Source: an uncultured delta proteobacterium
Lineage (GTDB): Bacteria > Desulfobacterota > Desulfobacteria > Desulfobacterales > Desulfosalsimonadaceae
Direction of reading: 5' to 3'
Length of the DNA stretch: 64,000 nt
Assembly (NCBI GenBank): GCA_963826785.1
Contig: CAWGYD010000001.1
Coordinates: forward strand, 416,001-480,000
The notes beneath the pieces were generated by a model. The model searched no databases. It saw only the letters and a list, made by a program, of their open reading frames with translations, and was not told the origin of the DNA. Below are positions 2,555 through 32,338 of this stretch, in pieces (positions within the stretch are counted from its first letter, which is position 1; each line of letters opens with the position of its first letter). The position numbers were made by a program, and so were the translations under genes.

Positions 2555-2587
2555 TTGCAAATGATCCTGTCAGAAAATGGAGACAAC

Positions 2588-3130: not shown

Positions 3131-3217
3131 CATATGAAAAACGAGCGGACAATCCCGCTGAAACAGCGCACATGTCCGGCTTCACCTCGGTAACTTTAAC
3201 CCGGAAATAGAGGATCA

Positions 3218-4342: not shown

Positions 4343-4350
4343 AAGAACGG

Positions 4351-5298: not shown

Positions 5299-5375
5299 CC
5301 GTACCGTCCGGGGGGGTCTGATGAATATCGGAATCCGCGGACCGCTGCGGAAATGACGATATAAGAGGGCAGAAT

Positions 5376-8046: not shown

Positions 8047-8089
8047 ATCGCCCCCTCTTTTTTCCAGGAACTAAAGGATTGAAGGATCT

Positions 8090-9433
8090 ATGTTACAACG
8101 GCTGATACACGGCTCATTCTGGGCCACTTCGGAGAAAATGGTCTCGGTTTTTCTCGGGTTTGCCAGTTATTTTCTGCTGGCCCACCTGCTTTCGCCTCAT
8201 GAAATGGGCGCCTATTTTCTGACCATGAGCCTGGTGGCCCTTTCCGCCACCCTCGCCCAACTGGGTTTGAATCAGACCATTGTCCGCCTGGTGGCCGAAG
8301 CGGTTGGAACCGGCCGGCCGGGGCGTGCCGCCGCTGCGGTGAAGAAGGTCATGCTGTACGGGGGGGCCGGCGCCCTGGTGGTGGCGGGCATCCTGATATC
8401 GGGAGCGGGCCGGTGGGTGGCCGTGGAGGTCTTTCATTCGTCCTTGATGGCCCATGTCATGGTTCTGGCCGGGATCATGCTGATCATGACCACTTTTCAG
8501 GGACTGCTCAGTGAATCTTTCCGGGGATTCTATGATATCCGGTATGCCAGCATCTTCAGCGGCTTCTTTTCCACTTTGATCTCCATTCTCCTGTTTTTCA
8601 TCCTGTGGATGAAAACAGGCCATGCCGACCTGGCGACGGTGATGATCCTTTCCATCATCGGCGGGACCACCAGCAACCTGGCCGCCGCTTTTCTGCTGAA
8701 GCGGAAAGTGAATACCGTTGCCGGCAAGGATGAACTCAGGCGGCGGGAAATTCTAACCATTGCCTGGCCCATGCTGGTGACCAATCTGACCCTGTTCGTG
8801 CTCAACCAGATGTCCATATGGGTGGTGGGCGCATTCCTGCCGGAAAGCCAGGTGGCCGTCTACGGGGCGGCCCTGCGATTCGCCCTTCTGTTGGAAAAGC
8901 CCCTGCTGATCGCCAATGCATTTCTGCCGCCCATCATTGCCGAGATGTACTTTACCGGCCGGAAAACCGAATTGGAGAGAATCATCCGTACGGTGGCGGC
9001 CTTTGTGAGCATACCGGCGCTTCTTCTGCTGCTGGGGTTCATCCTGTTCGGAAAGATGATGCTGGGGATCATTTTCGGAGAATTCTACCAGTCGGGCACC
9101 ATCCTGCTGCTGATCCTGAGCATGGGGCAATTCATCAATGTCTGGTCCGGGTCCTGCGGCATCACCCTGATGATGACCGGACACCAGAAGTACATGATGG
9201 GCATCACGGTGGTATGCGGACTGCTGGGACTCGGCGCATCCATTATCCTCGTTCAGCTCTACGGCGCCCTGGGTGTGGCCATCTCTTTCAGTGCCACCCT
9301 CTCGACGCAGAATATTCTGATGCTGGTGTTTTGCCGGATCAAAACCGGTATCTGGGCATTTGCGCATTTTTCATGGCCCGCCTTCCGCCGTCTGATCAAG
9401 TCCGAGCCCTTAAACGAACCTGCAAGGCCCTGA
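8090..9433 (+). CDS. wzx: Wzx-type oligosaccharide flippase
   Basis: About 12 TM segments. LLSPHEMG, LGL...VR, VAVYGAA.R, YGALGVA. Confidence 0.85.
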   Translation: MLQRLIHGSFWATSEKMVSVFLGFASYFLLAHLLSPHEMGAYFLTMSLVALSATLAQLGLNQTIVRLVAEAVGTGRPGRAAAAVKKVMLYGGAGALVVAGILISGAGRWVAVEVFHSSLMAHVMVLAGIMLIMTTFQGLLSESFRGFYDIRYASIFSGFFSTLISILLFFILWMKTGHADLATVMILSIIGGTTSNLAAAFLLKRKVNTVAGKDELRRREILTIAWPMLVTNLTLFVLNQMSIWVVGAFLPESQVAVYGAALRFALLLEKPLLIANAFLPPIIAEMYFTGRKTELERIIRTVAAFVSIPALLLLLGFILFGKMMLGIIFGEFYQSGTILLLILSMGQFINVWSGSCGITLMMTGHQKYMMGITVVCGLLGLGASIILVQLYGALGVAISFSATLSTQNILMLVFCRIKTGIWAFAHFSWPAFRRLIKSEPLNEPARP

Positions 9434-9465
9434 TCAGATAAAATCAAACACAGGAGCATTTTTTT

Positions 9466-10443
9466 ATGACCCAAACGGTGCCATATCCCATTCCGCTTTT
9501 CCTTTGCTCCCTGCCGCGCTCCGGCTCGACCCTGCTGCAGCGGATGCTGGCGGCCCATGCGCATATTTCGACGGCATCGGAGCCGTGGGTGGCACTTCCG
9601 TTTCTGTATGCCACCAGGACATCCGGGATCATGGCCGAATACAACCAGAAGGCGCTGCACGCGGCATTAAATGATTTTTTTGCCCAGCTGCCCAATGGAA
9701 AATCCGATTTTGATGCCGAGATCAGGACATTGATCCTCCGGCTGTACCGGAAAGCCTCAAAACCCGGCAGCATCTACTTTCTGGATAAAACACCCCGTTA
9801 TCTGCTGGTGGCCGAGGACCTGTTCAGATTGTTTCCGGATGCCCGGTTCATTTTTTTGTACCGGTCTCCTCTGGCGGTGGCTGCATCCATCATCGAGACC
9901 TTCGGTGAGGGAAGATACAATCTCCCCTATTACGCCGTCGATCTGTTCGCCTGTCTGGAAAACATGCTGACCTGCCAGGGCACTTATGAAGACCGGATCT
10001 GCCGGGTCAGATACGAGGACCTGGTGGAAGGCCCCGAAAGGCAGCTTTCTAAGATCGCAACCTATCTGAACCTTTCCTATTCGGACGCGCTGGTTTCCGG
10101 AGTGGCCGGAACCCGGCTGAGGGGGACCCTGGGGGATCGGACGGGCGCCGGCCAGTATGCCTCCGTCAGCACCGAACCCCTGGAAAAATGGAAAAACAGC
10201 CTGGGGAGCCCCCGGCGCAAAAGATGGTGCCGGCAGTATCTGCAATGGATCGGAGAGGCGCGCCTTATGCAGATGGGATATGATTTAAGCCACTTGAAAT
10301 CGGAGCTCGATTCGGTCCCTTTTCGATTCAAAACGTTTTTTTCCGATTTGCGGACTTCGGCCCGGCGGATGAAAACAGGCGCCGAGAAGGATCGAAGAAT
10401 CGCATACGACCATGACATCGTTGCCGTCCCCTCCGACGGATGA
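9466..10443 (+). CDS. Sulfotransferase family protein
   Basis: 5'-PSB loop LPRSGSTLLQ, DKTPRY, YRSPLAVAAS (3'-PB), RYEDLV. Confidence 0.88.
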   Translation: MTQTVPYPIPLFLCSLPRSGSTLLQRMLAAHAHISTASEPWVALPFLYATRTSGIMAEYNQKALHAALNDFFAQLPNGKSDFDAEIRTLILRLYRKASKPGSIYFLDKTPRYLLVAEDLFRLFPDARFIFLYRSPLAVAASIIETFGEGRYNLPYYAVDLFACLENMLTCQGTYEDRICRVRYEDLVEGPERQLSKIATYLNLSYSDALVSGVAGTRLRGTLGDRTGAGQYASVSTEPLEKWKNSLGSPRRKRWCRQYLQWIGEARLMQMGYDLSHLKSELDSVPFRFKTFFSDLRTSARRMKTGAEKDRRIAYDHDIVAVPSDG

Positions 10444-10459
10444 AGGAAGCGCTGAAGCG

Positions 10460-11743
10460 ATGAACATCCTGATGCTCAATTTCGGACAAAAAGACCACGG
10501 CACCTGGTACCGGCCGCATGCATGGGCAAGCTACCTGGTCCGGGCCGGGCATGCGGTCACCATCATCTGCGTTTCCGCAAGCGAACGACTCCGGCGCCGC
10601 GTTTACCTGCAAAACGGGATCCGCATTATCGAAACGCCATACTTCATGAGCGGCAAATATGCCATGGATCGGCTCGCAGGCGCTCCCGGGTGGGGTATTC
10701 TGGATATCGCCATGCGGCTGGGAGAGATCAAAAGGCATCGCTACGATGTCATCCATTGTTTCGAGCATTTCATGAATGTGTCCATCCCCGCTTACCGCAC
10801 ACTGGTGAAAAAGCACAATCCGGCCGTTCTGGTATCGGACTGGTGCGATCTGTACAGCGCGGGCGGATTCAGAGATCAATACGGGTACCGGCTCAACCGG
10901 ATCTATTCCAGGGCCGGCCTGCCTCTGCGACGGCTGATGGATTTTCTGGAGCGCGACCTGCGCCGCCGGGCTTCGGCGGTAACGGTGATCAGCCGCTTTT
11001 TACAAGACCGCGCCACGGCGATGGGCGTGGACCCTCAAAAGGTTTTTCTGATCCGGGGCAGCGTGGATACCACGGCGGTGGCGGCCGTGGACCGGTCGGT
11101 CGCCCGGCGGCGGACCGGCCTGGCTATGGAATCATCAGTGCTGGGGTTCCTGGGGACCCACCAGTCGGACGTGGACTTTTCACTGGCCGCATTTCGCCGC
11201 GTGCTCGAGCGCAATCCCGGTGCGGTTTTTGTCATCATCGGGCGCATCAGCCCGGAGATCGACCGCCAAGTGCGCGCTTCTGGGATGGAAAATCGGATTG
11301 TCCAGACCGGATGGTGCTCCCAGGAAGAGATGATCGACTACCTGTCGGCCTCGGATGTCTTTGTCCTGCCCATGAAGCCCAATCCGGTGAACGAGGCCCG
11401 CTGGCCCAACAAGATCGGTGAGTACATGGCCATGGGGCGGCCGGTGGTCACCACCCGGGTCGGGGATGTGGCACAGATGATCGAGGAAGAAGCCATCGGC
11501 CGGGTGTCGGACACCGATCCGGAAGACTTTGCCCGACACATTTCATTTTTGATTGAAAATGAGCCGCTTTCGCTGGCCATGGGGGAAAATGCCCGGAAAC
11601 TGGCGGAGAAAAAATTTGATACCCGCGTCCAGGGCGCATTCGTGGAATCCCTGTATGATTCATTACTGGCGGAGGCGTCGGTCCGAAATCCGGCCGGAAA
11701 ACGGTTCGTGAAGGAAAAAGATAATGAAAAATGGCCCAACTGA
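10460..11743 (+). CDS. Glycosyltransferase family 4
   Basis: SDVFVLP, WPNKIGEYMAMGRPVVTTRVGD. Confidence 0.9.
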   Translation: MNILMLNFGQKDHGTWYRPHAWASYLVRAGHAVTIICVSASERLRRRVYLQNGIRIIETPYFMSGKYAMDRLAGAPGWGILDIAMRLGEIKRHRYDVIHCFEHFMNVSIPAYRTLVKKHNPAVLVSDWCDLYSAGGFRDQYGYRLNRIYSRAGLPLRRLMDFLERDLRRRASAVTVISRFLQDRATAMGVDPQKVFLIRGSVDTTAVAAVDRSVARRRTGLAMESSVLGFLGTHQSDVDFSLAAFRRVLERNPGAVFVIIGRISPEIDRQVRASGMENRIVQTGWCSQEEMIDYLSASDVFVLPMKPNPVNEARWPNKIGEYMAMGRPVVTTRVGDVAQMIEEEAIGRVSDTDPEDFARHISFLIENEPLSLAMGENARKLAEKKFDTRVQGAFVESLYDSLLAEASVRNPAGKRFVKEKDNEKWPN

Positions 11744-12767
11744 TCTGAATGCCCGATCCGGGCCGGACCTGAGCGTGGTCATCCCGACCTACAACCGGGC
11801 GGATTTTCTCAAAGAGACGCTCGCGCATCTGCTTGATCAATCTCTTGATCCGCACCGATTCGAGGTCATTGTGGTGGATGACGGATCAGAAGACGAGACC
11901 CTGGATATGCTTGCCGCATCCGGCCCGCAATGGGAGGAGCGTCTGGTGGTGTTGCGCCAAGACCACAAGTTTTCGGGGGCGGCCCGGAACCTGGGGGTGG
12001 CCCATGCCCGGGGCCGGGTTATCCTTTCCATGGACGACGATATCATGGCCGATGGCGACATGCTCCGGCACCATCTCCGCCTTCATGAAAAATACCCCGG
12101 CCGGAGCACCATGGTGATGGGACGGGTGATCACCGGCAGCCGGAAGATGGACCTTTGCGATCCGGACGACCGCACCGTCACCGCCATATCGAAAACCAAC
12201 CAGGGGGATGACATCCTGGACCCCAGCGCATTCACCACCCAGAATGCGTCCTTCAAGCGCCGGTTTTTTCAGGAATGCGGGGGGTTTACCCCGGGCTTGA
12301 AAAGACTCGATGATCTGGATCTGGCGTTTCGGATGAAAGCCGGATACGTGCGGCTCCTTTACTGCAAAGAGGCCGTGGGCACCCATGTGCGCCCGCTGGA
12401 GACGGTGGATGCGGTCATCGATATGGGAAAACTCTATGGCCGGACCCTTGCGGAAAACTATGATCGGCTCTCCTGGGTAAACCGTGAATTCGTCCGCCTG
12501 GGCGCCCGGTTCAACGGCGGCTGGGCACATTTCGTGGAATCGCCGTCCGGCTACATCAAAGATGCAGTTCGTCGCCTGGCGATCAATCGGCTGACCATTG
12601 GGGTATTGGTATGGGCCACCATGCGGCTGCCCCGCATCAATCCGCCCTCAAGGACCGTGGTCCGCTGCTGCCGTGAAATCTGGGCCTTTTATTATCGTCA
12701 TGAATTTGAACGGACCCGGAAGCGGCTTGCCGGCAAAAATCTTCGATATCAGGCGGAGAATTCTTGA
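11724..12767 (+). CDS. Glycosyltransferase family 2
   Basis: SVVIPTYNR, VVDDGS.D, ARN.G, MDDD, DLDLAFR. Confidence 0.92.
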   Translation: MKNGPTDLNARSGPDLSVVIPTYNRADFLKETLAHLLDQSLDPHRFEVIVVDDGSEDETLDMLAASGPQWEERLVVLRQDHKFSGAARNLGVAHARGRVILSMDDDIMADGDMLRHHLRLHEKYPGRSTMVMGRVITGSRKMDLCDPDDRTVTAISKTNQGDDILDPSAFTTQNASFKRRFFQECGGFTPGLKRLDDLDLAFRMKAGYVRLLYCKEAVGTHVRPLETVDAVIDMGKLYGRTLAENYDRLSWVNREFVRLGARFNGGWAHFVESPSGYIKDAVRRLAINRLTIGVLVWATMRLPRINPPSRTVVRCCREIWAFYYRHEFERTRKRLAGKNLRYQAENS

Positions 12768-13814
12768 ATGGAAAATTTGCGCCAAAAAATTATTTTCATC
12801 TCCTGGAAAACGGGAATCCCCAGATCTGCGGGGCTGTCTGACGCCCTCGGTGCAACCCCTTATTATATTGAATACCTGCCCAATGCGCCAAAAGCCCTGC
12901 TCCCCTTGCGGTACCTGCTTCAGGCGGGAAAAACGATATCCATCATCATGGGGCAACGCCCGGACATCATTTTTGCCATGAATCCCCCCATCATATTGCC
13001 GCTGGTGGCCTACCTGGTCTCTGTATTTACGGGGGCGAAGCTCGTGATCGATTCCCATACCGGCGCGTTTATCGGCAAATGGGCGGCCTTTCTGCCCCTT
13101 CACCGGTTTTTGTCCAGGCGATCCCTCATGACCGTCGTGACCAATGACCATCTGAAACAGATTGTGGACGGCTGGGGAGCCAACGGGATCATTATGGAGG
13201 ATCGTCTGCCCGAACTCGGATGGGAAAAACCGCCTGTGATCACCCGCAGGCCGTCGGTCTGCGTGATCAATTCCTTTTCCAAAGACGAACCGCTGGGTGA
13301 AATCCTGTCGGCCGCCCGGAATCTTCCGGCATGTGATTTCTACATCACGGGCCGTCTTCCGGCCCGGACCACCCCTTTGTTTGAAAAAAAGACCCAGAAC
13401 GTGATCTTTACCGATTACATCCCCGATGCGGAATATGTGCGCCTGATCCGTTCCGTGGATGTGATCATGGTGCTGGTCAATACGGATCACACCATGCTGT
13501 GCGGGGCGTATGAAGCGGTGGCCGTGGAAAAGCCGCTGATCACCTCCGACTGGCCGGTGCTCCGGGAGTATTTTTCAAAGGGGACCCTTTATGTGGATAA
13601 CCGGCCGGTTCAGATCGAGCGCGCCATAGGGCAGGCCCTGAAACGAAAGCACAAGTTGTCCGCAGAGATGAAGGACCTCAAAGCCCTGATCCGGTCCCGC
13701 TGGGAAGCGCGATTCGCGGCCCTCACGTCCGCCCTGGGACAACCGTCGGGCCGCCGGTCAGCGACCCCGGCGACTTCCACCGGCCCCGCGTCCCGGCGGC
13801 TTTTTCCGTCATGA
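12768..13814 (+). CDS. Glycosyltransferase (GT-B, family 4-like)
   Basis: NPP, IDSH, DEP, GAYEAVAVEKPLITSD. Confidence 0.8.
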   Translation: MENLRQKIIFISWKTGIPRSAGLSDALGATPYYIEYLPNAPKALLPLRYLLQAGKTISIIMGQRPDIIFAMNPPIILPLVAYLVSVFTGAKLVIDSHTGAFIGKWAAFLPLHRFLSRRSLMTVVTNDHLKQIVDGWGANGIIMEDRLPELGWEKPPVITRRPSVCVINSFSKDEPLGEILSAARNLPACDFYITGRLPARTTPLFEKKTQNVIFTDYIPDAEYVRLIRSVDVIMVLVNTDHTMLCGAYEAVAVEKPLITSDWPVLREYFSKGTLYVDNRPVQIERAIGQALKRKHKLSAEMKDLKALIRSRWEARFAALTSALGQPSGRRSATPATSTGPASRRLFPS

Positions 13815-13824
13815 GGCGGGCGAC

Positions 13825-15657
13825 ATGAGAGCGGCCATCAAAACCCGGGTAAACGCATCCGGCCCCATATCCTCCCCGATTTTCATCCCCGATATTGAGA
13901 CCTCCCATCAGGTGTTTTCAGCCCTGGCCGATCAAGGATTTCCGCTTCAGACTGGAAAAAAAGGAGAAATTGCGCATCCAGGTGATTATCCCGTGGCCGT
14001 GGTGGACGGCCAGAGCGCTGCGGGAAGGGATGACTGGCTGGCATATGCGGCCGGCGGCGGCAGCCTGATGATGATCCACCCGCACGCTTCATGGGCGCAG
14101 GCCATTGGATTTTCAGGTCATATGCAAAGCATGGACAAAGCATGCCTGCGTTTTTCAAAAAGCCTGAACGATCCGATCGAGATACGCGGAAAGATCGACA
14201 CCTGGGGGAATGGGCCGGGAAATATCCTGGCAGGATTCACCACCGCATCACATGGGGGGCAGGGGCCTTTGTTGCCGGGCATTGTGGAGTTGCCTTTTGG
14301 AGAAGGCAGCATCCTGGTGCTCCTGTTTTCGCTTGACGGATACATCTGCTTCCTCCATCAGCGCAACCATGAAATCGCCATCGAGGCGGGGGTCGGCAGC
14401 GCGGAGCGGATTGCGATCTCTGGAATGGACCCGGCCTTCCTGCGCCTCCCCCAGATCGACCTGCTGATGGGTTTCTTGAGCGGATGGATCTGCCGTCAAC
14501 TGGATCGCGCCGACCGGCCCCTTCCCATGTTTGCGCCCCTGCCGGGAGGGCGCCGAAGCATGGTGACCTTCAGCTTCGATGATGTGGCCCCCAGCGGAAA
14601 ACCCGTGAGAGGTGCCCTTGAACGGCTGCGCCGGGCCGAACCGAAGGCTGTGGGCCGCCCGGCACTCGCCCGGAAGATTTTCGATGTGAAAGCGGTGGGG
14701 CGGCAGCTGGTTGGCTATCCGTTCAATTACAGGGAGCAGGCGCAGAAGCTGGTCTCTTTATTTAATCGATATGATGCCTCGGGAAGCGTTTACGTGCTGC
14801 CGTTTGCCGCATGTATACAGAACCGTCCCCGGATAACCGGTTTTTCGGGATTTTCGAAAAAGACCTTTGACCTGTTGATCGAAAACGGCTGGGATGTGGG
14901 AACGCATCTCAAACCGGGTCAGCTGTCGGATTACACAGCCATGCACCGGGCTTTTTGCGGTCGTTTCAGGGTCTCGCCCCGCGGGCACCGGGGCCATGAA
15001 CTGGGGTGGGTCGGCTGGGATGAGGATTTTTCGGAACTGGCGGACATGGGATATGCCTACGACACCACATGGAACTGGGGCGGCCACGGCGGGCTTGCCT
15101 GGGTGCTGGGAACGGCATATCCCTTCCATCCCCGGGACCGCCGGGGAAAGTCTTTATCCATTCTTGAAATGCCGGTAACCGCCTGGCTGGAAGATCTTTT
15201 TCAGGATGCCGACAGTAGCCTGAGGGCCATTGAACAGGCCATGGACCGGTATCCCGGCATATACCATTTCGGCGGCCACAGCAGCCTGATGGTGACCTCG
15301 TCGGCGTATGCCGGGCTGGTGGAGGACATCCTGTCCATGGCCACCCGGCGGCCGGATGCGGGAATTGACAAAAACGTCGGTCAACTGGCCGATTTCTGGA
15401 TGAAGCGGGAGCGCTCCGGCATCGACCGGTTGTTCTGGGATTTCAATTCAGCCTCGATTTCCTGCCGGGTGGAAAGTTTTTGCGATGACGGTCAATTAAA
15501 CCTGTACCTGCCCCGGAAATGGCGGGATCTGGTCCTCCGATCCGTTCTCATCGATCATAAAGCGGTCGTTTTTTCGGATACACCCACCGGCGCTGCCGTT
15601 ATTCCACTGGCAAAAGGCCTTCAGGAGATGACGGCCTTTTTCGGAGATATATCATGA
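13825..15657 (+). CDS. Large polysaccharide deacetylase-like protein
   Basis: TFSFDD, WDVGTH, GHRGHEL, YDTT, GTAYPF, ILEMP, HFGGH. N-terminal third unassigned. Confidence 0.6.
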   Translation: MRAAIKTRVNASGPISSPIFIPDIETSHQVFSALADQGFPLQTGKKGEIAHPGDYPVAVVDGQSAAGRDDWLAYAAGGGSLMMIHPHASWAQAIGFSGHMQSMDKACLRFSKSLNDPIEIRGKIDTWGNGPGNILAGFTTASHGGQGPLLPGIVELPFGEGSILVLLFSLDGYICFLHQRNHEIAIEAGVGSAERIAISGMDPAFLRLPQIDLLMGFLSGWICRQLDRADRPLPMFAPLPGGRRSMVTFSFDDVAPSGKPVRGALERLRRAEPKAVGRPALARKIFDVKAVGRQLVGYPFNYREQAQKLVSLFNRYDASGSVYVLPFAACIQNRPRITGFSGFSKKTFDLLIENGWDVGTHLKPGQLSDYTAMHRAFCGRFRVSPRGHRGHELGWVGWDEDFSELADMGYAYDTTWNWGGHGGLAWVLGTAYPFHPRDRRGKSLSILEMPVTAWLEDLFQDADSSLRAIEQAMDRYPGIYHFGGHSSLMVTSSAYAGLVEDILSMATRRPDAGIDKNVGQLADFWMKRERSGIDRLFWDFNSASISCRVESFCDDGQLNLYLPRKWRDLVLRSVLIDHKAVVFSDTPTGAAVIPLAKGLQEMTAFFGDIS

Positions 15658-16472
15658 GAAACCATGCTGAAGAAAGCGTGTCAACATTTTACAATACAAA
15701 GGGATGGAAAACTGAAGGGGAAATTACTGAAGATGCCAAAAAATGGGAGGACTTGAGGGCGCACGCCCGGGCATATGTCAGCCGGTGCCGCTTAAGGATC
15801 TTGAGGCACATACCCGAAAACGGCATGAATATCCTGGACATGGCCTCCGGACCGATACAGTATAGAGAGTACCTGGCATTTTCAGAAAATTTCGAGAAGC
15901 GCTACTGCATCGATTTGTCATCGGATGCGTTAAGGCAGGCCGGAATGAAAATCGGGGCGCATGGCGTTTTTCTGCATGGCAGCTTCTTTGATATCGGCCT
16001 GGAGGAGAATTTTTTTGATTGTGCCGTCAGCCTTCACACCATCTATCATATGGACAAGGAAAGGCAGGAAGGGGCCGTACGCAAATTGCTCCATGTCACC
16101 AAGCCGGGAAAACCGGTCATCATTGTATACAGCAATCCCAATTCGATAATTCTGGCCGCAGAATCGTTTTTACGATTATTCAAAAGAGCGGCACCGTCTT
16201 TGAACAAGCAGAAGAACGAAGGAGAAAATGGGCAAAATCCGATTCTGTATTACCATGCGCACCCGATCTCATGGTGGCGCCGATTCAGCGACAGCGCGAG
16301 TGTGAAAATTCTGCCCTGGCGCTCATTTGATGCAGATACGCAAAAAAAGATTATACCGGATAACCGGACCGGCAGAAAAATGCTGGACATCCTGTTTGAC
16401 CTGGAAGACCGGTTCCCGAATTTTTTCGTCCGATTTTTTCAATATCCCATGATTATTCTTACAAAAAAGTAA
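15654..16472 (+). CDS. Class I SAM-dependent methyltransferase
   Basis: ILDMASG, CIDLS, FDCAVSLHTIYH, TKPG. Start overlaps the upstream stop (ATGA). Confidence 0.85.
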   Translation: MRNHAEESVSTFYNTKGWKTEGEITEDAKKWEDLRAHARAYVSRCRLRILRHIPENGMNILDMASGPIQYREYLAFSENFEKRYCIDLSSDALRQAGMKIGAHGVFLHGSFFDIGLEENFFDCAVSLHTIYHMDKERQEGAVRKLLHVTKPGKPVIIVYSNPNSIILAAESFLRLFKRAAPSLNKQKNEGENGQNPILYYHAHPISWWRRFSDSASVKILPWRSFDADTQKKIIPDNRTGRKMLDILFDLEDRFPNFFVRFFQYPMIILTKK

Positions 16473-19891: not shown

Positions 19892-19991
19892 TATGTCTCC
19901 TGAATTCTTCGGCGCCAAATGGCCGATGACCATTTTTCGCCTGCATGTGCATTTTCAAAAGTATAGGATAATTTAAGTATTTATCAATCAG

Positions 19992-20036
19992 CCCGGCCGT
20001 GTCCGAAACATCATCGCCGTTTCGGACACGGCCGGG
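19992..20036. other. 18-bp perfect stem-loop between the two surface-protein genes
   Basis: CCCGGCCGTGTCCGAAAC-N9-GTTTCGGACACGGCCGGG. No strong U-tract on the minus strand. Confidence 0.7.
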
Positions 20037-20044
20037 GCGGCCGG

Positions 20045-25265: not shown

Positions 25266-25526
25266 ATGAAATCGATGGATTTGCTCAAAGAATTTATCGT
25301 CAACGAACTTATTTCAGATCCGACTGTTACTGACATCAGCGAAACCGAATCGCTGATCGAAAGCGGCATTCTCGACTCGATGGGAATCATGAAAATGCTC
25401 GATTTCATCGAGGCCAGTTTTTCCGTGAAGATATCGGATGAAGATATCACCCCGGAAAATTTTGAGAATTTAGAGGCGATTTGCGGTTTGATTGGCGACA
25501 GAACTTTCAGCAGCCAGGAAAATTAA
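25266..25526 (+). CDS. Stand-alone acyl/peptidyl carrier protein
   Basis: 86 aa, acidic. LIESGILDSMG (phosphopantetheine Ser), I.DEDITPENF. Confidence 0.92.
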   Translation: MKSMDLLKEFIVNELISDPTVTDISETESLIESGILDSMGIMKMLDFIEASFSVKISDEDITPENFENLEAICGLIGDRTFSSQEN

Positions 25527-26677
25527 TGGATTTCGACCTCTCGGACATGCAGCGGTCGCTTCAGAAAAGCATCACCGAATTCGCCCGCAGGGAACTAAAC
25601 GACGAGTTGGCGGAAACCGATGCGCAGGCCCGGTTTCCCATGGATAAATGGCGCCGGATCTGCGACATGGAGGTGATCGGCATCCCCATTCCCGAAGCCT
25701 ACGGCGGTCAGGGGGAGGGGATCCTCACGACCCTGGTTGCGATTGAGGCCCTTGGAAACGGATGCCGGGACAGCGGCCTGATCCATTGTCTGATCACCCA
25801 GATTCTGTGCGCCCTTCAGATCGCCCATTTCGGGGATGAAAAACAGAAACAACGATGGCTACCCGGCATTTGCCGGGGGGAGATCATCTGTTCCCAGGCC
25901 ATTACCGAACCGGATGCCGGGTCGGATACCCTGTCCATTCAGACCGCCGCAGAACGGATCGCCGCCGGCGGGTATGATCTTAACGGCACCAAGATATTCA
26001 TCACCAATGGCCCCATTGCCGACCTGGTGATCGTCTTTGCGGTCACCGACCCGGCTAAAAAAAACATGGCCGGGATCTCCTGCCTGCTGGTCGAGGACGG
26101 CCGGTCCGGATTTCGCCGGGGGCGTCCATTGGACAAGATGGGTTTGCGGACCCTTCAGAACGGTGAACTGGTGTTTACAGACTGCGGCGTCCCCGCGGAG
26201 AACCTGCTGGGCAAGGAAGGCCAGGGCGCGATGATCCTCAATGAAGCCATGCAGGTGGAGCGGACCCTGATCCCGGGTGCCCATATCGGCATCATGCAGA
26301 GAACACTGGATGCCTGCGTCAAATATGCCAATGGACGGCACCAGTTCGGGCAGCCCATCGGCAGGTTTCAGGCCGTCTCCCGGAAAATCGCTGAAATGCG
26401 CGTCAACCTGGAACTCGGCCGGTTGATCCTGTACAAGGCCGCCTGGCTCAAAGACCAGAAGAAAAGGGCCTACATGGAGGCATCCATCGCCAAGCTCTTC
26501 ATCAGTGAAAATCTGAAAAAAGCCTGCCTGGAAGCCGTCCAGCTGCACGGCGCCTACGGTTTCATGAAGGAATTTGAATTAGAGCGGGATTTGCGGGATT
26601 CCATTGCCGCCACCCTCTATTCAGGAACATCGGAAATACAAAACAATATCATCTCCAGTTTGTCAGGCTTGAAATGA
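25526..26677 (+). CDS. Acyl-carrier dehydrogenase (ACAD), L-prolyl-PCP dehydrogenase-like
   Basis: ITEPDAGSD, NGTKIFITNGP, KMGLR, RHQFGQPI, HGAYG. GCRDSGL and LYSGTSEIQ (Ser in place of the usual YEG Glu) resemble PltE/RedW. Start coupled via TAATG. Confidence 0.85.
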   Translation: MDFDLSDMQRSLQKSITEFARRELNDELAETDAQARFPMDKWRRICDMEVIGIPIPEAYGGQGEGILTTLVAIEALGNGCRDSGLIHCLITQILCALQIAHFGDEKQKQRWLPGICRGEIICSQAITEPDAGSDTLSIQTAAERIAAGGYDLNGTKIFITNGPIADLVIVFAVTDPAKKNMAGISCLLVEDGRSGFRRGRPLDKMGLRTLQNGELVFTDCGVPAENLLGKEGQGAMILNEAMQVERTLIPGAHIGIMQRTLDACVKYANGRHQFGQPIGRFQAVSRKIAEMRVNLELGRLILYKAAWLKDQKKRAYMEASIAKLFISENLKKACLEAVQLHGAYGFMKEFELERDLRDSIAATLYSGTSEIQNNIISSLSGLK

Positions 26678-28329
26678 GCGCCACGCCGTTATTCCTCGTC
26701 CAGCAGTTCATTGAACAGTCCCATACCGGCTCAAACAGCGATGTCGCCCTGAGCGATCCGTCCTGCCAATTGACGTGGCAGGAACTGCGCAGCCGCACCA
26801 GCCGGTTGGCCCACTGCCTGAAAAAAAACGGCATCAGGCGCCAGGACCGGGTGGTCATCTGCCTTCAGCGGTCCGCGTGGTGTATCGTCGCCATGCTCGG
26901 CATTCTCAAGGCGGATGCCATTTATGTTCCCATGGATGAGAAAGCCCCGGATGAACGGATGCGCAAAATCATTCAGGACAGCAACCCGGGCGCTGTGATT
27001 TGCGATGACAAAACCATCGGAAGGATCAATGCCGTAATCGGCCTGACCGGGTTTAAGCCGGCCGTATTTCTGCTCAACAGCACTAAAATCCCTCCGGAAG
27101 GCATTGGCGCCAAACTGGTTGTCCAGCCGCAGATCGATGCCTGCGCACCATCGCCGCCGGTCTTTGAAAATATTGATGCGGATATCGCCTATATCCTTTA
27201 CACATCAGGCTCCACCGGAAATCCCAAGGGGGTCATGATCTCCCATGCCAATATTTTCAATTACATTGAGTGGGCGGCGGATTACCTGGAAATCACCAGC
27301 GACGATGTGATCCTGAGCACGGCGCCCTTTCATTTCGACATGTCGGTATTCGATATTTACTGCGCCCTCAAAACAGGCGCCCGGCTCGCCATCGCCTCCC
27401 CGGGGCTGCTCCTGTTTCCGAATCGACTGGTGGATTTCATGGAACGGGAACGGGTCACCATCTGGAAGGGGGTATCGTCACTGCTCATGTATATCGCCCG
27501 GACCGGGGCATTGAAGCCGGGCCGGCTGCCGCTGTTGCGCAGGATCCTGTTTGCGGGGGAGGTTCTGCCCACCCGGTACCTGATGGACTGGATGACCTGC
27601 TTTCCGGATAAAATCTTTTACAACGGCTACGGTCCCACGGAGGCCACCGGCATGTCCGCCTGCTACCGGGTGCCCGATATTCCGAAACGCCGGGAAGAAA
27701 TCATTCCCATCGGGAAGTCCCGGGCCAACACGGAGCTCTTCCTGCTGGATGAAGCCGGGCGGCCGGTTGCCCGGGGCGAAGTCGGAGAACTTTGCATTCG
27801 GGGGGCGGGCCTGTCTCCAGGTTATTGGAATGATGTGAAAAAAACCCGGGAAAAGTTTGTCCTAAATCCGGCAGGGGCGGCCGGGGATCGGATTTATAAG
27901 ACAGGAGACCTTTGCCGGATAAGGGCGGACGGCAATTTCGAGTACAAAAGCCGCATGGATGATCAGGTCAAATGGATGGGGTACCGGATCGAACTGGGTG
28001 AGATTGAAAATATCATGCGGGCCATGGATTCAGTCGAGGATGTGACGGTGGTCATGACCGGAGGGGAATCCGATGCGGATCGGGAAATCGTCGCCTTCGT
28101 CGAAGGCGTCTCCGGCGCCGGCATTAAAGATCTGATCAACCAGGTGAATTGCAGTCTTCCGGGTTACATGCGGCCCAGACGGATCATCCCCATCGACCGT
28201 ATCCCCCGCAACGAGCGGGGAAAGGTGGACCGGCAGGAATTGAAACGTTTTCATCTTCGCATCGGCCCGGCATTAAAGGATCCTCCGCGAAGGCCGCAAA
28301 AGAATCCGGGGCAGTCCGCCTCGATTTAG
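26674..28329 (+). CDS. Stand-alone amino-acid adenylation (A-domain) enzyme
   Basis: AYILYTSGSTGNPKG, FDMS, YGPTE, GELCIRGAGLSPGYW, YKTGDL, R.DDQVK..GYRIELGEIE, NERGKVDR. Confidence 0.93.
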   Translation: MSATPLFLVQQFIEQSHTGSNSDVALSDPSCQLTWQELRSRTSRLAHCLKKNGIRRQDRVVICLQRSAWCIVAMLGILKADAIYVPMDEKAPDERMRKIIQDSNPGAVICDDKTIGRINAVIGLTGFKPAVFLLNSTKIPPEGIGAKLVVQPQIDACAPSPPVFENIDADIAYILYTSGSTGNPKGVMISHANIFNYIEWAADYLEITSDDVILSTAPFHFDMSVFDIYCALKTGARLAIASPGLLLFPNRLVDFMERERVTIWKGVSSLLMYIARTGALKPGRLPLLRRILFAGEVLPTRYLMDWMTCFPDKIFYNGYGPTEATGMSACYRVPDIPKRREEIIPIGKSRANTELFLLDEAGRPVARGEVGELCIRGAGLSPGYWNDVKKTREKFVLNPAGAAGDRIYKTGDLCRIRADGNFEYKSRMDDQVKWMGYRIELGEIENIMRAMDSVEDVTVVMTGGESDADREIVAFVEGVSGAGIKDLINQVNCSLPGYMRPRRIIPIDRIPRNERGKVDRQELKRFHLRIGPALKDPPRRPQKNPGQSASI

Positions 28330-28407
28330 AACATTTTCGTCATTGGTGGGGCTTATGAAAAAGGTTTTCCTGATTTCAGGTCTTCGATCAGATCCAGGCG
28401 GAGAAAC

Positions 28408-29457
28408 ATGATATCAAAAGACGAAGTCCGGAAATATCTTGGCATCGTTTATGATCTCAAACGCGAGTGTGCTTTTTATGATGTGCACGCCCATCCGTTT
28501 GAAATCTTCTACAACGAGGTGCAATATGCCCGGCATCCTTCCGATGAGCGGCTGTATGCATCTGACGGGACGGATTTTGCGGGGCCGGCAATTTCAGATG
28601 TTATGGCCGATACGGATGAAAGGAGCCGGTCGGTGCTTCGTCTGATTCGCCAGTCATCCGGATCGAGGGAGAAGCTGAGCGCCGCGTTCCGGCATACCGG
28701 CCCTCGTATATTTGAACAGCACGCGCTTCTCAGCGGAATCGATCACGTTCTGCTGCTTCCCGCCTGGCCGCCGGACGGCGCCAGTGACGCGCAAATGGCG
28801 CAAACGGCACGCATGTTTGTCGACGAAAACCTTTTTCTGCTGGCCGGGAGCATCCCCAGAACCGTTAAAATCGCAGACATTGCCACATACATGCAGGATG
28901 CGGCTGACCGGTTCTGCCTTCGGGCCGTCAAGCTGCATCCGAACCTGACGGGGATCAATCCGGTGGATGCATCGGGCCGCGAACGGATCGAAGCCATCCT
29001 GGATGCCTGCGGAAATTGCGGTCTTCCCCTGATGGTCCACGGGGGAATGAGCCCGGTGCTCAAAGACAGTCCGGCGGCGACCTACGGCATACTGGAAAAT
29101 CTGTCCCGAATCGACTGGGGAGCCGGCCGTGTTCCCGTGATCATTGCCCATGCGGGTTTTTACGGATATGAATTCGAGTCCGTCGATAAAGGTCGGTTGT
29201 CCGCGCTCAGGCGCCTGCTCGACCGGTGCGGCCAGGCCTGGGTGGATTTGTCCGGGCTGAACGTGGGCGTCATGTCGAAGGTCCTGGAAAACATAGGGTC
29301 ACACCGGATTCTGTTCGGGTCGGACATGCTCTATGAGGATCAGTGGCAGATGGTGGTCCGGACGATGTATGCCATCGATCGCTCGGGCCTGCCCCTGGAG
29401 GAGAATTTTATCCGGATAGCGGGGCGCAATCCCGCAGCCATATTTGCTGACAAGTGA
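28408..29457 (+). CDS. Amidohydrolase_2 family metalloenzyme
   Basis: DVHAH, VKLHP, VHGG, IAHAG, ILFGSD. Confidence 0.85.
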   Translation: MISKDEVRKYLGIVYDLKRECAFYDVHAHPFEIFYNEVQYARHPSDERLYASDGTDFAGPAISDVMADTDERSRSVLRLIRQSSGSREKLSAAFRHTGPRIFEQHALLSGIDHVLLLPAWPPDGASDAQMAQTARMFVDENLFLLAGSIPRTVKIADIATYMQDAADRFCLRAVKLHPNLTGINPVDASGRERIEAILDACGNCGLPLMVHGGMSPVLKDSPAATYGILENLSRIDWGAGRVPVIIAHAGFYGYEFESVDKGRLSALRRLLDRCGQAWVDLSGLNVGVMSKVLENIGSHRILFGSDMLYEDQWQMVVRTMYAIDRSGLPLEENFIRIAGRNPAAIFADK

Positions 29458-29554
29458 GTTTCATCAGAAGATAATGGTTTAATTACAGCTGTTTAGAAGC
29501 GGTGTGCGCGGTCCGGATCAAGGCCGCATGTGCACTATCATCAAGAGGACATAC

Positions 29555-30199
29555 ATGCTCGAATCGATTCAGATGCGGTTTTATCAGGTGCTGGAAACAT
29601 GGAAAACAGACGGGTTTGCCGCCGTCCGGCGGGAGTCGTTTTATGCCGGCCGGGAGGCGATCCTGACGGTAAAGGAACTCAATCGTCAAAAACCGCCCCG
29701 GGTCCCCCTCGATGCGACCGGTCTGAAGTGCATGGAATTGTCGGGTTTGCCCTCTGCCTATCAAAACCTGAAATATTCGCTGAAAAGCCGCCAGGTGAAA
29801 ATGATCCGAAATCTGAATAAAGGATACCAGGCGTTTGCGTTTGTCGGCGGCAACGAGGTCATCGGCGATGTCTGGCACTGCACGGGCGGCCGGGGGAAAA
29901 AGCCGGCACATCCCGATATGAAATGGCTGGGCATCGAGGAGCTGAAGGAAAACGAGGCCTATATGTTTGACTTCTATATCCGGCCGGACAAACGCAAAGG
30001 CGGCCTGATCAACACCGCCCTCGGCCATGCATTGAATACCTTGAAAGACAAAGGGTTTGAAAGGGTCTACGGCTTCTACATGGCCGACAATCTGCCCGCG
30101 CTGTGGATGCACCGCACCACCGGATACAGTGAAATCAACCGGGTCAGAATCAAGCGGCATCTTTTCGGCATTCATCCTGTCCGAACGATCGGGGCATAA
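29555..30199 (+). CDS. GNAT-family acyltransferase
   Basis: YMFDFYIRPDKRKGGL (acyl-donor motif A), DNLPAL..H...GY. SD GAGG before ATG 29555. Confidence 0.78.
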   Translation: MLESIQMRFYQVLETWKTDGFAAVRRESFYAGREAILTVKELNRQKPPRVPLDATGLKCMELSGLPSAYQNLKYSLKSRQVKMIRNLNKGYQAFAFVGGNEVIGDVWHCTGGRGKKPAHPDMKWLGIEELKENEAYMFDFYIRPDKRKGGLINTALGHALNTLKDKGFERVYGFYMADNLPALWMHRTTGYSEINRVRIKRHLFGIHPVRTIGA

Positions 30200-30302
30200 C
30201 CATAATATCGTATGATGCGCAGGATGGACGGTTCTCCGGGCGATACTTACAGTTCAGGAAAGATAATCTTTTTTTATTCCATGCGGACGAGGAGGCAGGT
30301 TT

Positions 30303-31226
30303 ATGATTCGATATTTCGGGACGGCAATGGCGCTAAAGAGTTTTTCGGTGTCCTCTCACACCAAGAAAATGTATCGCTTCCTGGGAAATTCACTCGGAGC
30401 GAAAAAACGCTCAGATACGGGGCTTTCGACGGAGTACATTGAACGAGCCAAGTGGATTTTGAATCTGTTCAATCAATTTGGCGTCTCATTGGATAATTCG
30501 AGATTTTTGGAATTGGGAACAGGCTGGATCCACTGGGAATCAACGATACTCAGCCTATTCGGCAATTCCGAGTTCACCCTGTTTGATGTCTGGGACAATC
30601 GGCAGCTGGATGCATTTAAGTCATACTTTTCGAGTTTAAATACCGTATTCGAGGAAGTTTTTGGCCGGGAGGAAAGTTTAAATCCCGCCCAATACGAACA
30701 GGCACGTGCAAAATTAGGCAAAATCGCGTCAATGAATGCCTACGCTCAACTATATGACTTTTTGAAATTCAATTACATCGTTGAGCCTTCGGGAAAACTT
30801 CATCATTTAGAAGATGATTCATACGAGGCCTGTTTCAGCTGGAATGTTTTTGAACACATACATGAAAGTATCGTTTCAGATTACATCCGGGACCTTTACC
30901 GTGCGCTTAAACCGGGCGGGTATTCCTTCCAGGCGATCAATATCAGTGATCACCTGGCAGACTATGAAGAAGGCGTCTGCAGAAAAAATTATCTCAAATA
31001 TTCAGATTTTACGTGGAAATTCTGTTTTGAAAATGATGTACAGTATTTTAACAGAATTCAGGCAAGTGAATGGCTGCGTCTTTTTCAACAGGCCGGATTC
31101 GAGTTGCTGGAAAAAGATTTCCTTTTCCAGCCGGTTCATTGCAGAATCAATAAAAAATATGAGAATCTGGATCGAAAAGATATCGAGTGCACGATGTTAA
31201 AAGTCGTCCACCGTAAACCTTCTTGA
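30303..31226 (+). CDS. Class I SAM methyltransferase-like protein
   Basis: FLELGTGW, SWNVFEHI, LKPGG, ISDHL. Visibly more AT-rich than its neighbours. Confidence 0.8.
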   Translation: MIRYFGTAMALKSFSVSSHTKKMYRFLGNSLGAKKRSDTGLSTEYIERAKWILNLFNQFGVSLDNSRFLELGTGWIHWESTILSLFGNSEFTLFDVWDNRQLDAFKSYFSSLNTVFEEVFGREESLNPAQYEQARAKLGKIASMNAYAQLYDFLKFNYIVEPSGKLHHLEDDSYEACFSWNVFEHIHESIVSDYIRDLYRALKPGGYSFQAINISDHLADYEEGVCRKNYLKYSDFTWKFCFENDVQYFNRIQASEWLRLFQQAGFELLEKDFLFQPVHCRINKKYENLDRKDIECTMLKVVHRKPS

Positions 31227-31270
31227 TGAGTTGAATCCTCAATATTCGTAGTCAAGATGCGAAGTCATAC

Positions 31271-32338
31271 ATGATCGTTTGTAAAAATCCGAATCAAATG
31301 AATAATCCTGTCGATCCGGCCGTCTTTCCGGGCTGGGACGAAACCTTGGCCGCTTCGGATCAGTATTCCATTTTTCATTCGTCACCATGGGCAAAGGTTC
31401 TTCATGAAACTTACGGTTATGCGCCCCGGTATTTTTTGACCCGTTCGGGGGAGCGCTTCAACCTGCTGGTGCCGGTTATGGAAGTAAGCAGCAAGCTGAC
31501 CGGCCGCCGGGGCGTGTCGCTTCCCTTTTCGGATTATTGCGCACCCATCCTGCCCGAGGGGGTGCCGCCAATTCAGCTCATGGAAAACCTCGCTCAATTC
31601 GGGAGAAGGGCGGGTTGGCGATATGTCGAAATCCGGGCGGACCGGCCCATGTTTGAAGATGTAGCACCTTATGAGACTTTCCAGGGCCATTTCCTGCCGC
31701 TGCAGCCGGATACGGACCCGATTTTCCGTACCTTTCGCAAGGCCACCCAGCGCAATGTCAAAAAAGCCGTCAAAAGCGGGGTAGTTGTTTCATTTCACAC
31801 GTCCGCCTATGCGGTGAAGGAATATTACCGTCTCCATTGCCTCACCCGAAAGCGGCACGGTCTGCCCCCCCAGCCGTTCTTCTTTTTCAGCCGCATCCAC
31901 AAACACATCCTCGCGCCCGGAAAAGGCTTCATCGCTTTGGCCGAACATGGCCACCGCAACATCGCCGGCGCCGTTTATCTCACATTCCATCGGCAGTCGG
32001 TTTACAAATTCGGCGCCATCGATCTGGATTACAGCGCCCTCAACCCTTTTTACCTGGTGATGTGGGAAGCCATCCGCCGCCTTGCCGAAAGCGGATCGGC
32101 CGGTCTGTGCTTCGGCCGGACCGAGCCTGAAAACAAGGGGCTCATCCAGTTCAAGGACGGGTGGGGAGGCGAAAAGAGGACCATCCATTACTACCGGTAC
32201 GACCTGAAGCGCAAAAACTTCATGGAGAAACCCGCCACCCGGAATCCGGAGGACAGCCGGATCAACCGGATTTTCTCCCGCACGCCTATCCCGTTTTTAC
32301 AGCTGGCCGGAAATATCCTCTACCGGCACATGGGGTAG
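31271..32338 (+). CDS. FemAB-like double-GNAT protein (EPS-associated type)
   Basis: IFHS..W, SLPFSDYC, RNVKKA...GV, RKRHGLPPQP..FF, FGRT...N.GL.QFK.GWG. Start may be 31298. Confidence 0.85.
   Translation: MIVCKNPNQMNNPVDPAVFPGWDETLAASDQYSIFHSSPWAKVLHETYGYAPRYFLTRSGERFNLLVPVMEVSSKLTGRRGVSLPFSDYCAPILPEGVPPIQLMENLAQFGRRAGWRYVEIRADRPMFEDVAPYETFQGHFLPLQPDTDPIFRTFRKATQRNVKKAVKSGVVVSFHTSAYAVKEYYRLHCLTRKRHGLPPQPFFFFSRIHKHILAPGKGFIALAEHGHRNIAGAVYLTFHRQSVYKFGAIDLDYSALNPFYLVMWEAIRRLAESGSAGLCFGRTEPENKGLIQFKDGWGGEKRTIHYYRYDLKRKNFMEKPATRNPEDSRINRIFSRTPIPFLQLAGNILYRHMG

What the first reader, a model, noticed from the sequence alone, without database searches (positions are those of the whole stretch)
25266..32338. 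Pyrrole-pathway-like carrier-protein module with no NRPS/PKS, paired with GNAT/FemAB transferases near an EPS locus
Seen: translationally coupled ACP, ACAD and A-domain genes (TAATG and ATGA overlaps), then an amidohydrolase, GNAT, methyltransferase and FemAB-like GNAT. No condensation, KS, thioesterase or halogenase gene is present. Known: the trio PltL/PltE/PltF (RedO/RedW/RedM) loads proline on a carrier and oxidises it to pyrrolyl-2-carboxyl. DltA/DltC use an A-domain and carrier to decorate a surface polymer. Inference: an undescribed hybrid that builds an oxidised, possibly methylated aminoacyl unit on the carrier and transfers it to amino sugars of the EPS via the GNATs. This is the strongest candidate for a new system in the window.
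Basis: partly seen in the sequence, partly recalled or inferred. Interest (0 to 1): 0.85.

Follow-up and report, generated by a model that had tools for sequence, protein, structure and literature searches.

The report
Non-proline pyrrole-type glycan acylation module
These genes are relatives of the enzymes that turn proline into a pyrrole on a carrier protein, but their substrate pockets differ from the proline type; in a related genome the same module lies inside the matching exopolysaccharide gene cluster, and it likely builds a glutamate-derived oxidised ring that is likely attached to an amino sugar of the polymer.

Summary
The operon is real. The dehydrogenase belongs with carrier-dependent prolyl oxidases: AnaB is the best PDB hit, and it keeps the catalytic Glu and Tyr-Ser pair. 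The adenylation (A) domain, however, lacks the proline pocket. Related loci fall into three classes: Tyr278 (proline type), Asn278 (with an EctC-like cupin or arginase-like enzyme in 19 of 21 loci) and Lys278 (this window; with this amidohydrolase in 18 of 21). Dehydrogenase His87 tracks Lys278. In a same-order genome the Lys278 module sits inside the collinear EPS locus, between the DegT aminotransferase and deacetylase genes that are adjacent in this window. Two or more glycan markers lie beside 17 of 43 module loci, against 0 of 73 control loci. Best reading: glutamate or pyroglutamate is loaded, cyclised, oxidised to a 5-oxo-pyrroline (hydroxypyrrole) acyl group and passed to an EPS amino sugar. 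Substrate and transfer are inferred. The methyltransferase and FemAB-like gene are not conserved parts. Pyrrole-to-sugar transfer without NRPS/PKS is known from clorobiocin, and this scan earlier found proline-type versions on other DNA; the non-proline classes are the new part. Verdict: new variant of a known kind.

The parts
25266..25526 (+). Stand-alone carrier protein (core). Ser38 in a DS motif is the likely phosphopantetheine site.
   Evidence: PF00550. Top PDB hits 2my5, 6cxt_A (the carrier crystallised with a dehydrogenase), PltL, PigG. D37 and S38 invariant in 24 of 24 aligned carriers.
25526..26677 (+). AnaB/PigA/RedW-type aminoacyl-carrier dehydrogenase (core) with a class-specific pocket (H87, T91, Q124, Q211, N212, L248).
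   Evidence: Best PDB hit 4irn prolyl-ACP dehydrogenase 344 bits, next 264. PigA 357 and RedW 341 bits, below cut-offs 500 and 650. E245 and Y365-S366 in 60 of 60 class-assigned ACADs.
26674..28329 (+). Stand-alone amino-acid adenylation enzyme (core), pocket code DMFKLAGGM (Lys278 class, full-length loop).
   Evidence: TIGR01733 over cut-off; codes. PltF score 237 bits against 302 for an Asn278-class and 367 for a Tyr278-class protein.
28408..29457 (+). Amidohydro_2 metalloenzyme tied to the Lys278 class (core); predicted ring-forming (lactam) or tailoring enzyme.
   Evidence: Present in 18 of 21 Lys278 loci, 0 of 21 Asn278 and 0 of 18 Tyr278 loci. H27, K175, H211, H248 and D306 in 35 of 35 homologues, H29 in 34 of 35. 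TIM-barrel fold ties lactonases and decarboxylases.
29504..30199 (+). GNAT-fold protein; likely the acyltransferase. Probable start is the ATG at 29555.
   Evidence: PF00583 weak. Model pLDDT 90.8 matches tandem GNATs such as MshD and a glucosamine N-acetyltransferase. In 11 of 21 Lys278, 7 of 21 Asn278 and 0 of 18 Tyr278 loci. GAGGA before 29555.
30303..31226 (+). Class I SAM methyltransferase; accessory, likely a separate acquisition.
   Evidence: No homologue in any fetched locus. GC 0.42 and GC3 0.47, against 0.55-0.57 and 0.66-0.72 for the flanking enzyme genes. General methyltransferase family.
31271..32338 (+). FemAB-like (Acetyltransf_6) protein; variable neighbour and possible second transferase.
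   Evidence: TIGR03019 106 bits, below cut-off 260. Same cluster in 1 of 21 Lys278 and 3 of 21 Asn278 loci. Three paralogues elsewhere in the genome.
1529..5298 (+). EPS amino-sugar cassette (GFO dehydrogenase, hexapeptide acyltransferase, DegT aminotransferase, deacetylase-like protein); likely supplies the acceptor.
   Evidence: Families. In G792 the Lys278 module lies between the DegT (62% identical) and deacetylase (48%) orthologues.
451..16472 (+). Wzx/Wzy EPS locus (it begins upstream of the window); likely target polymer.
   Evidence: Sugar transferase, GT4, GT2, Wzy_C, Polysacc_synt and sulfotransferase hits. Upstream export and kinase-like ORFs.

Best explanation
The A domain likely loads L-glutamate (or its lactam, pyroglutamate) onto the carrier, the amidohydrolase likely closes the lactam ring, the AnaB-type dehydrogenase is predicted to oxidise the tethered ring to a 5-oxo-pyrroline (5-hydroxypyrrole)-2-carbonyl group, and the GNAT likely transfers it to an amino sugar of the EPS. 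Shown: gene order and coupling; the prolyl-oxidase-type catalytic residues; the non-proline pocket; the amidohydrolase found only with Lys278; embedding in the orthologous EPS locus of G792. Inferred: the substrate, the amidohydrolase reaction, the donor of the GNAT and the acceptor sugar. Odds by step: carrier-bound oxidised amino-acid acyl group about 0.9; glycan acceptor about 0.7; glutamate/oxoproline identity about 0.55 given the first two.
For: (1) ACAD type. (2) Three A-domain classes, each with its own partner. (3) The Asn278 partner c6 aligns across EctC, weakly (102 columns, 29% identity, E 0.002, probability 14%; 8 of 12 members hit PF06339, best E 0.0016). EctC-type Athv28 cyclises glutamine to 5-amino-pyrroline-2-carboxylate (PMC8627960, passages), and showdomycin loads that ring on a carrier and oxidises it (PMC8724604, passage). 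The Lys278 ACAD clade (support 1.0) is nested next to Asn278 loci, so a 5-oxo analogue is the smallest change, with Asn (acceptor for an amidine NH2) becoming Lys (donor for C=O or carboxylate). (4) His87 is in 21 of 21 Lys278-class ACADs and is lost in L126, whose ACAD is in the Lys278 clade but is paired with an Asn278 A domain and c6. (5) The amidohydrolase keeps H27, H29, K175, H211, H248, D306; by recalled knowledge this is the binuclear set of cyclic-amide enzymes. (6) G792 collinearity; L119 also has the module directly after DegT, L109 after DegT-deacetylase, and L115 inside an EPS locus. (7) 17 of 43 module loci against 0 of 73 controls carry at least two glycan markers. (8) The transferase slot is filled by GNAT, hexapeptide or LpxL-like proteins in different loci. 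(9) 5-Oxoprolyl derivatives are documented N-acyl groups on O-antigen amino sugars (PMC10609480, passages).
Against: No substrate was tested, and code positions were read from motifs, not from a structure. Lys278 is, from recall, the Asp/Asn signature. Foldseek ranks decarboxylases (LigW, IDCase, ACMSD) at the top; the wide search ties them with lactonases. H29 is Ser or Cys in 3 of 12 aligned locus proteins. Six of 13 long Lys278 loci, from two lineages, have no glycan marker. In the window the module is 8.8 kb from the EPS locus and about 20 kb from DegT. The GNAT keeps an RG motif at the CoA-binding loop, so it may be an ordinary acetyl-CoA acetyltransferase. The marker set for one search came from module loci (own locus left out), and related loci are not independent.
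Confidence: 0.4

Rival explanations
1. Same glycan-acylation route but a different acidic substrate. Aspartate or a cyclic Asp derivative (for example dihydroorotate) would be loaded and dehydrogenated, then decarboxylated, hydrated or hydrolysed by the amidohydrolase before transfer.
For: Lys278 resembles recalled Asp/Asn codes. The loop is full length, like ordinary alpha-amino-acid A domains (no gap against LgrA; gap for the Tyr278 class). Top Foldseek hits are decarboxylases and the LigJ hydratase.
Against: The ACAD stays within the cyclic-imino-acid oxidase lineage and sits next to Asn278 loci. L126 shows that an ACAD of this clade can be paired with the Asn278 pathway. The beta-4 Lys plus five ligands fits an amide hydrolase better (recalled).
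Confidence: 0.25
2. The module makes the same kind of acyl group but for a non-EPS acceptor (protein glycan, lipid or small molecule), and in this genome it has left the EPS pathway.
For: The L124/L125/L133/L136/L143 lineage (PilZ, TANGO2 and unknown neighbours) and L137/L138 (second A domain and KSIII) have no glycan markers. The window's module is detached from the EPS locus.
Against: G792 has it inside the orthologous EPS locus. The window keeps the DegT-deacetylase pair that accompanies the module in L103, L107, L109 and L115.
Confidence: 0.22
3. A plain PltF/PltL/PltE-type module that makes pyrrole-2-carboxyl from L-proline.
For: AnaB is the best ACAD hit, PltL and PigG are among the top carrier hits, and PltF is among the A-domain hits.
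Against: The code is DMFKLAGGM, not DLFYLAL-VC. The Lys278 pocket is kept in 114 of 120 closest homologues. The ACAD pocket is changed. The PltF score is no better than for unrelated NRPS A domains. A dedicated amidohydrolase is not needed for proline (0 of 18 Tyr278 loci).
Confidence: 0.08
4. A chance cluster of a catabolic acyl-CoA dehydrogenase and an acyl-CoA ligase.
For: General acyl-CoA dehydrogenase hits at about 40% identity.
Against: Translational coupling with a carrier; a clade separate from most generic and genomic ACADs, apart from L001/L002; E245/YS signature instead of the CoA-type residues; the trio recurs across dozens of loci.
Confidence: 0.02

Closest known systems
Thiotemplated pyrrole/pyrroline modules PltF/PltL/PltE, PigI/PigG/PigA, RedM/RedO/RedW, Bmp4/Bmp1/Bmp3, AnaC/AnaD/AnaB
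   Same: Stand-alone A domain, carrier and ACAD-family oxidase with the conserved catalytic Glu (PMC10849742, passages).
   Different: Non-proline A pocket, altered ACAD pocket, an amidohydrolase partner, no PKS/NRPS acceptor nearby, and a glycan context.
Clorobiocin CloN3/N4/N5 with CloN1/N2/N6/N7
   Same: A carrier-made pyrrolyl group is methylated and transferred to a sugar without a condensation domain (PMC11218499, passages).
   Different: Proline substrate; the acceptor is an antibiotic's noviose hydroxyl. Here the candidate transferase is a GNAT or hexapeptide protein and the likely acceptor is a surface-polymer amino sugar.
Showdomycin SdmE/SdmC/SdmD and anthelvencin Athv28
   Same: A cyclase makes a 5-substituted pyrroline from glutamine that is loaded on a carrier and oxidised (PMC8724604, PMC8627960, passages). 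This matches the Asn278 sister class with its EctC-like cupin.
   Different: The window's class has Lys278 and an amidohydrolase instead. The known products are small-molecule antibiotics. Sdm sequences were not compared.
DltA/DltC teichoic-acid D-alanylation
   Same: A stand-alone A domain and carrier decorate a surface polymer.
   Different: DltA 290 bits against cut-off 560, DltC 24.5 against 68; no DltB/DltD seen; an oxidation step is added.

Membership tests
Prolyl-carrier oxidase (AnaB/PigA/RedW/Bmp3) subfamily | Catalytic Glu at the AnaB position | tested here: met
   E245 aligns with the AnaB Glu in MEWERG; 60 of 60 class-assigned ACADs have it.
Prolyl-carrier oxidase (AnaB/PigA/RedW/Bmp3) subfamily | Groups with carrier-linked rather than CoA-linked ACADs | tested here: met
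   Tree of 117 sequences. Characterised enzymes were not in the tree; their link rests on the PDB hit, 344 against 264 bits.
Prolyl-carrier oxidase (AnaB/PigA/RedW/Bmp3) subfamily | NCBIfam PigA/RedW equivalog cut-off | tested here: not met
   357 against 500 and 341 against 650 bits.
PltF/PltL/PltE proline-to-pyrrole module | A domain, carrier and ACAD encoded together | tested here: met
PltF/PltL/PltE proline-to-pyrrole module | Proline-type A-domain pocket (Tyr278, short loop; reference code recalled, and seen in PltF-like loci) | tested here: not met
   DMFKLAGGM with a full-length loop; the Tyr278 class scores 367 bits on PltF against 237 here.
PltF/PltL/PltE proline-to-pyrrole module | Pyrrolyl-S-carrier formed in vitro | not testable with these tools
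   Needs enzymes and MS.
Clorobiocin-type pyrrolyl transfer to sugar | CloN2/CloN7-type transferases and a second carrier | tested here: not met
   One carrier only; no KSIII or alpha/beta-hydrolase family hit among the seven ORFs.
Showdomycin/anthelvencin ADPC route | EctC-type glutamine cyclase | tested here: not met
   None in the operon; the genome's best PF06339 match is E 6.7e-5, under cut-off, with stops. Weakly met for the Asn278 sister class.
Dlt D-alanylation system | DltA/DltC over cut-off, with DltB and DltD | tested here: not met
   no MBOAT family among the window ORFs scanned.
COG2159 decarboxylases (LigW, IDCase, ACMSD) | Fold and active-site match specific to a decarboxylase | tested here: inconclusive
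   10-18% identity; Z 19-23 ties lactonases, decarboxylases and uncharacterised proteins.

The most novel reading that the evidence does not exclude
The proline-to-pyrrole machinery has radiated into an envelope-decoration toolkit with at least three substrates. It would put pyrrole-, 5-aminopyrrole- and 5-oxo-pyrroline (5-hydroxypyrrole)-2-carbonyl groups on bacterial glycans. A domain, oxidase pocket and ring-forming enzyme change together, with three unrelated metalloenzyme folds (EctC-like cupin, arginase, amidohydrolase) filling one cyclase slot, and GNAT, hexapeptide or LpxL-like transferases filling the delivery slot.
Probability: 0.35. Interest if true: 0.85.

Novelty: new variant of a known kind. 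Interest (0 to 1): 0.68.

Why it matters
It predicts a class of redox-active, glutamate- or glutamine-derived heteroaromatic N-acyl groups on surface polysaccharides of mostly uncultured bacteria (nearest named homologues are Desulfobacterota and Geomonas). It offers a testable route towards 5-oxoproline-type glycan substituents, which are known from O-antigen structures and for which no biosynthetic paper turned up in the searches here. It gives candidate functions for an uncharacterised amidohydrolase family, an EctC-like bicupin and a large A-domain clade that databases label DltA or proline ligase.

Tried and rejected
The genome-contig scan with the single ACAD returned mostly generic ACADs; 73 of these loci were reused as the negative control. 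Among 60 relatives the best ACAD hits were 41-44% identical, the level of this genome's own paralogue, and were not examined further. The amidohydrolase family was found in 1 of 400 other genomes of the class and 0 of 36 of the family. Of 8 phylum hits, L108 lacks the signature. Plasmid searches with c6 and the amidohydrolase found nothing. PDB sequence searches gave nothing significant for the amidohydrolase or c6 and only weak GNAT hits. Promoter and terminator counts equalled shuffles. PltF's own alignment could not be displayed, so the proline reference code is recalled. Tetrahydrodipicolinate to picolinyl was considered and ranked low because decarboxylation at that position is chemically unfavourable (inference). 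Conserved methylation was rejected. The primary showdomycin paper (PMC8292215) and two ids recalled from memory were not held. Dropped rows: the ACAD tree left out L081-L100 (duplicates, or relatives' ACADs), 66 of L001-L080 and matches under 300 residues; one search left out loci under 8 kb.
Full report
Observation. The seven ORFs are present and co-directional. ACP/ACAD overlap by TAATG and ACAD/A by ATGA. No condensation, KS, thioesterase or halogenase family appeared in the 54 window ORFs scanned. The genome (87.8% complete) gave no condensation domain and no other A domain above 31% identity. It has two phosphopantetheinyl transferases, four ETF-alpha genes and KS-bearing ORFs on another contig. 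A Wzx/Wzy EPS locus ends 8.8 kb upstream. It holds a GFO dehydrogenase, hexapeptide acyltransferase, DegT aminotransferase and deacetylase-like gene.

The dehydrogenase. The best solved relative is prolyl-ACP dehydrogenase 4irn (344 bits; next 264). PigA and RedW are the top NCBIfam models but below cut-off. In a tree of 117 ACADs the window's enzyme lies in a clade of support 1.0 nested among carrier-linked ACADs, apart from the genome's nine other ACADs and 11 of 13 generic ones; L001 and L002 fell inside the wider carrier-linked group. E245 and Y365-S366 are present in 60 of 60 class-assigned sequences. The catalytic Glu of AnaB and Bmp3 is described in PMC10849742 (passages read). The carrier's best PDB hits are pyrrole-pathway carriers.

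The A domain is not the proline type. I examined 91 loci (L003, L004, L101-L189). Seventy A-domain sequences, read at pocket positions located by motif, fall mainly into three classes: Tyr278 (DLFYLAL-V, short loop; recalled as the proline type), Asn278 (DLFNLAI-S) and Lys278 (DMFK, full-length loop). The window reads DMFKLAGGM. Lys278 is kept in 114 of the 120 closest database homologues; 6 were not parsed. PltF scores 367, 302 and 237 bits against one member of each class.

Partners follow the class (21 Lys, 21 Asn, 18 Tyr loci, window excluded). The amidohydrolase is in 18, 0 and 0. The three Lys loci without it end within the A gene. An EctC-like cupin (12) or arginase-family enzyme (7) is in 19 of 21 Asn loci and in no other class-assigned locus. 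The cupin aligns across EctC (weak: E 0.002, probability 14%), and by my reading of that alignment it keeps the metal and substrate residues listed in PMC6344544 (passages). EctC-type Athv28 converts glutamine to ADPC in vitro (PMC8627960, passages). Showdomycin is proposed to load that ring on a carrier and oxidise it (PMC8724604, passage). The ACAD pocket changes in step: His87 in 21 of 21 Lys-class enzymes, Phe87 in 18 of 19 Tyr and 19 of 20 Asn. The one Asn exception, L126, has a Lys-clade ACAD that has lost His87. Related loci are not independent, so these counts are descriptive.

The amidohydrolase is a discrete family: 35 proteins, all E below 1e-85. Its model (pLDDT 87.7) ties uncharacterised proteins, lactonases and decarboxylases. 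H27, K175, H211, H248 and D306 are invariant and H29 is in 34 of 35, though H29 is Ser or Cys in 3 of 12 locus proteins. From recalled knowledge this is the binuclear set of cyclic-amide enzymes. Its reaction is not determined.

Link to glycans. Among loci of at least 8 kb, two or more glycan markers occur in 17 of 43 module loci (Lys 6 of 13, Asn 6 of 15, Tyr 3 of 10, unassigned 2 of 5) and in 0 of 73 generic ACAD loci; 12 of 73 controls had one non-specific hit. The clearest case is G792 of the same order. Its locus matches the window's EPS genes in order (export protein 39%, sugar transferase 44%, GFO 61%, hexapeptide 72%, DegT 62%, deacetylase 48%, GT4 45%). Between DegT and the deacetylase it carries ACP, ACAD (55%), a DMFKLGVGI A domain (49%), the amidohydrolase (36%) and a small hexapeptide protein in place of the GNAT. 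In the window DegT and the deacetylase are adjacent, so the module appears to have moved, or to have been inserted at that site in G792; the direction was not tested. Against the link: 6 of 13 long Lys loci, from two lineages, have no marker.

Transferases and extras. The GNAT is in 11 of 21 Lys, 7 of 21 Asn and 0 of 18 Tyr loci. Tyr loci carry hexapeptide (6) or LpxL-like (5) proteins instead, and some Asn loci another GNAT-like family (5). This swapping suggests a delivery slot (inference). The GNAT model resembles tandem GNATs such as MshD; its donor is unknown. The methyltransferase has no homologue in the fetched loci and low GC. The FemAB-like gene is an occasional neighbour. ETF genes flank the module in 4 loci, as expected for an anaerobic dehydrogenase.

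Mechanism. Most likely: Glu or pyroglutamate is loaded, the lactam is closed by the amidohydrolase, the ring is dehydrogenated to a 5-oxo-pyrroline (hydroxypyrrole) acyl group, and the GNAT passes it to an amino sugar made by GFO/DegT (confidence 0.4). Rivals: an Asp-type substrate (0.25), a non-EPS acceptor (0.22), plain proline (0.08), chance clustering (0.02). 5-Oxoprolyl N-acyl groups exist on O-antigen amino sugars (PMC10609480, passages and table rows), but no link to this module was tested.

Comparison and novelty. It works like PltF/L/E and CloN3/4/5, but fails the proline-pocket test and lacks Clo-type transferases. Clorobiocin already shows pyrrolyl transfer to a sugar (PMC11218499, passages). 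Five searches aimed at such a module in glycan loci found no paper describing it; I saw only listings for the hits, and most subscription journals are not held. No supplements were read; the chalkophomycin alignments (its Figure S9) could refine the pocket assignments. This scan earlier noted proline-type versions in envelope or glycan loci of other genomes. The new elements here are the Lys278 and Asn278 classes, their matched partners and the collinear EPS evidence. Verdict: new variant of a known kind, interest 0.68.

Noticed in passing
L173:1879-3081 and 12 other loci (cluster c6): A 400-aa bicupin with no confident Pfam hit whose C-terminal half aligns weakly with EctC; it alternates with an arginase-family gene beside Asn278 A domains and is likely a glutamine cyclase.
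   Followed up: partly
L124, L125, L133, L136, L143: The module (Lys278 class where the A domain could be read) sits next to a divergent PilZ gene, a TANGO2-family gene and an unknown 400-500 aa gene, with no glycan genes; the acceptor is unexplained.
   Followed up: partly
L137:1884-6300, L138:4454-9295: A second carrier, an A domain with a different pocket (DNLF), a KSIII and an unknown protein lie beside the Lys278 module.
   Followed up: no
L126:5659-10571: Mosaic locus: a Lys278-clade ACAD without His87, paired with an Asn278 A domain and the EctC-like cupin.
   Followed up: partly
window 34933-36795: A sodium:sulfate symporter-family gene appears in pieces over three ORFs (167, 109 and 340 aa); frameshift or assembly error.
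   Followed up: no
window 16619-21418 (- strand): Two likely secreted proteins between the EPS locus and the module: 1104 aa with an internal duplication and a partial pectate-lyase-like hit, and 457 aa with Fn3 and TSP3 repeats.
   Followed up: no
window 13825-15657 and 9466-10443: A 610-aa EPS-locus protein with no Pfam or NCBIfam hit, and a sulfotransferase suggesting a sulfated EPS.
   Followed up: no
G000:C5:65167-74365: KS-bearing ORFs of 2411 and 925 aa (two KS matches in the latter), resembling a Pfa-type synthase by layout (recalled).
   Followed up: no
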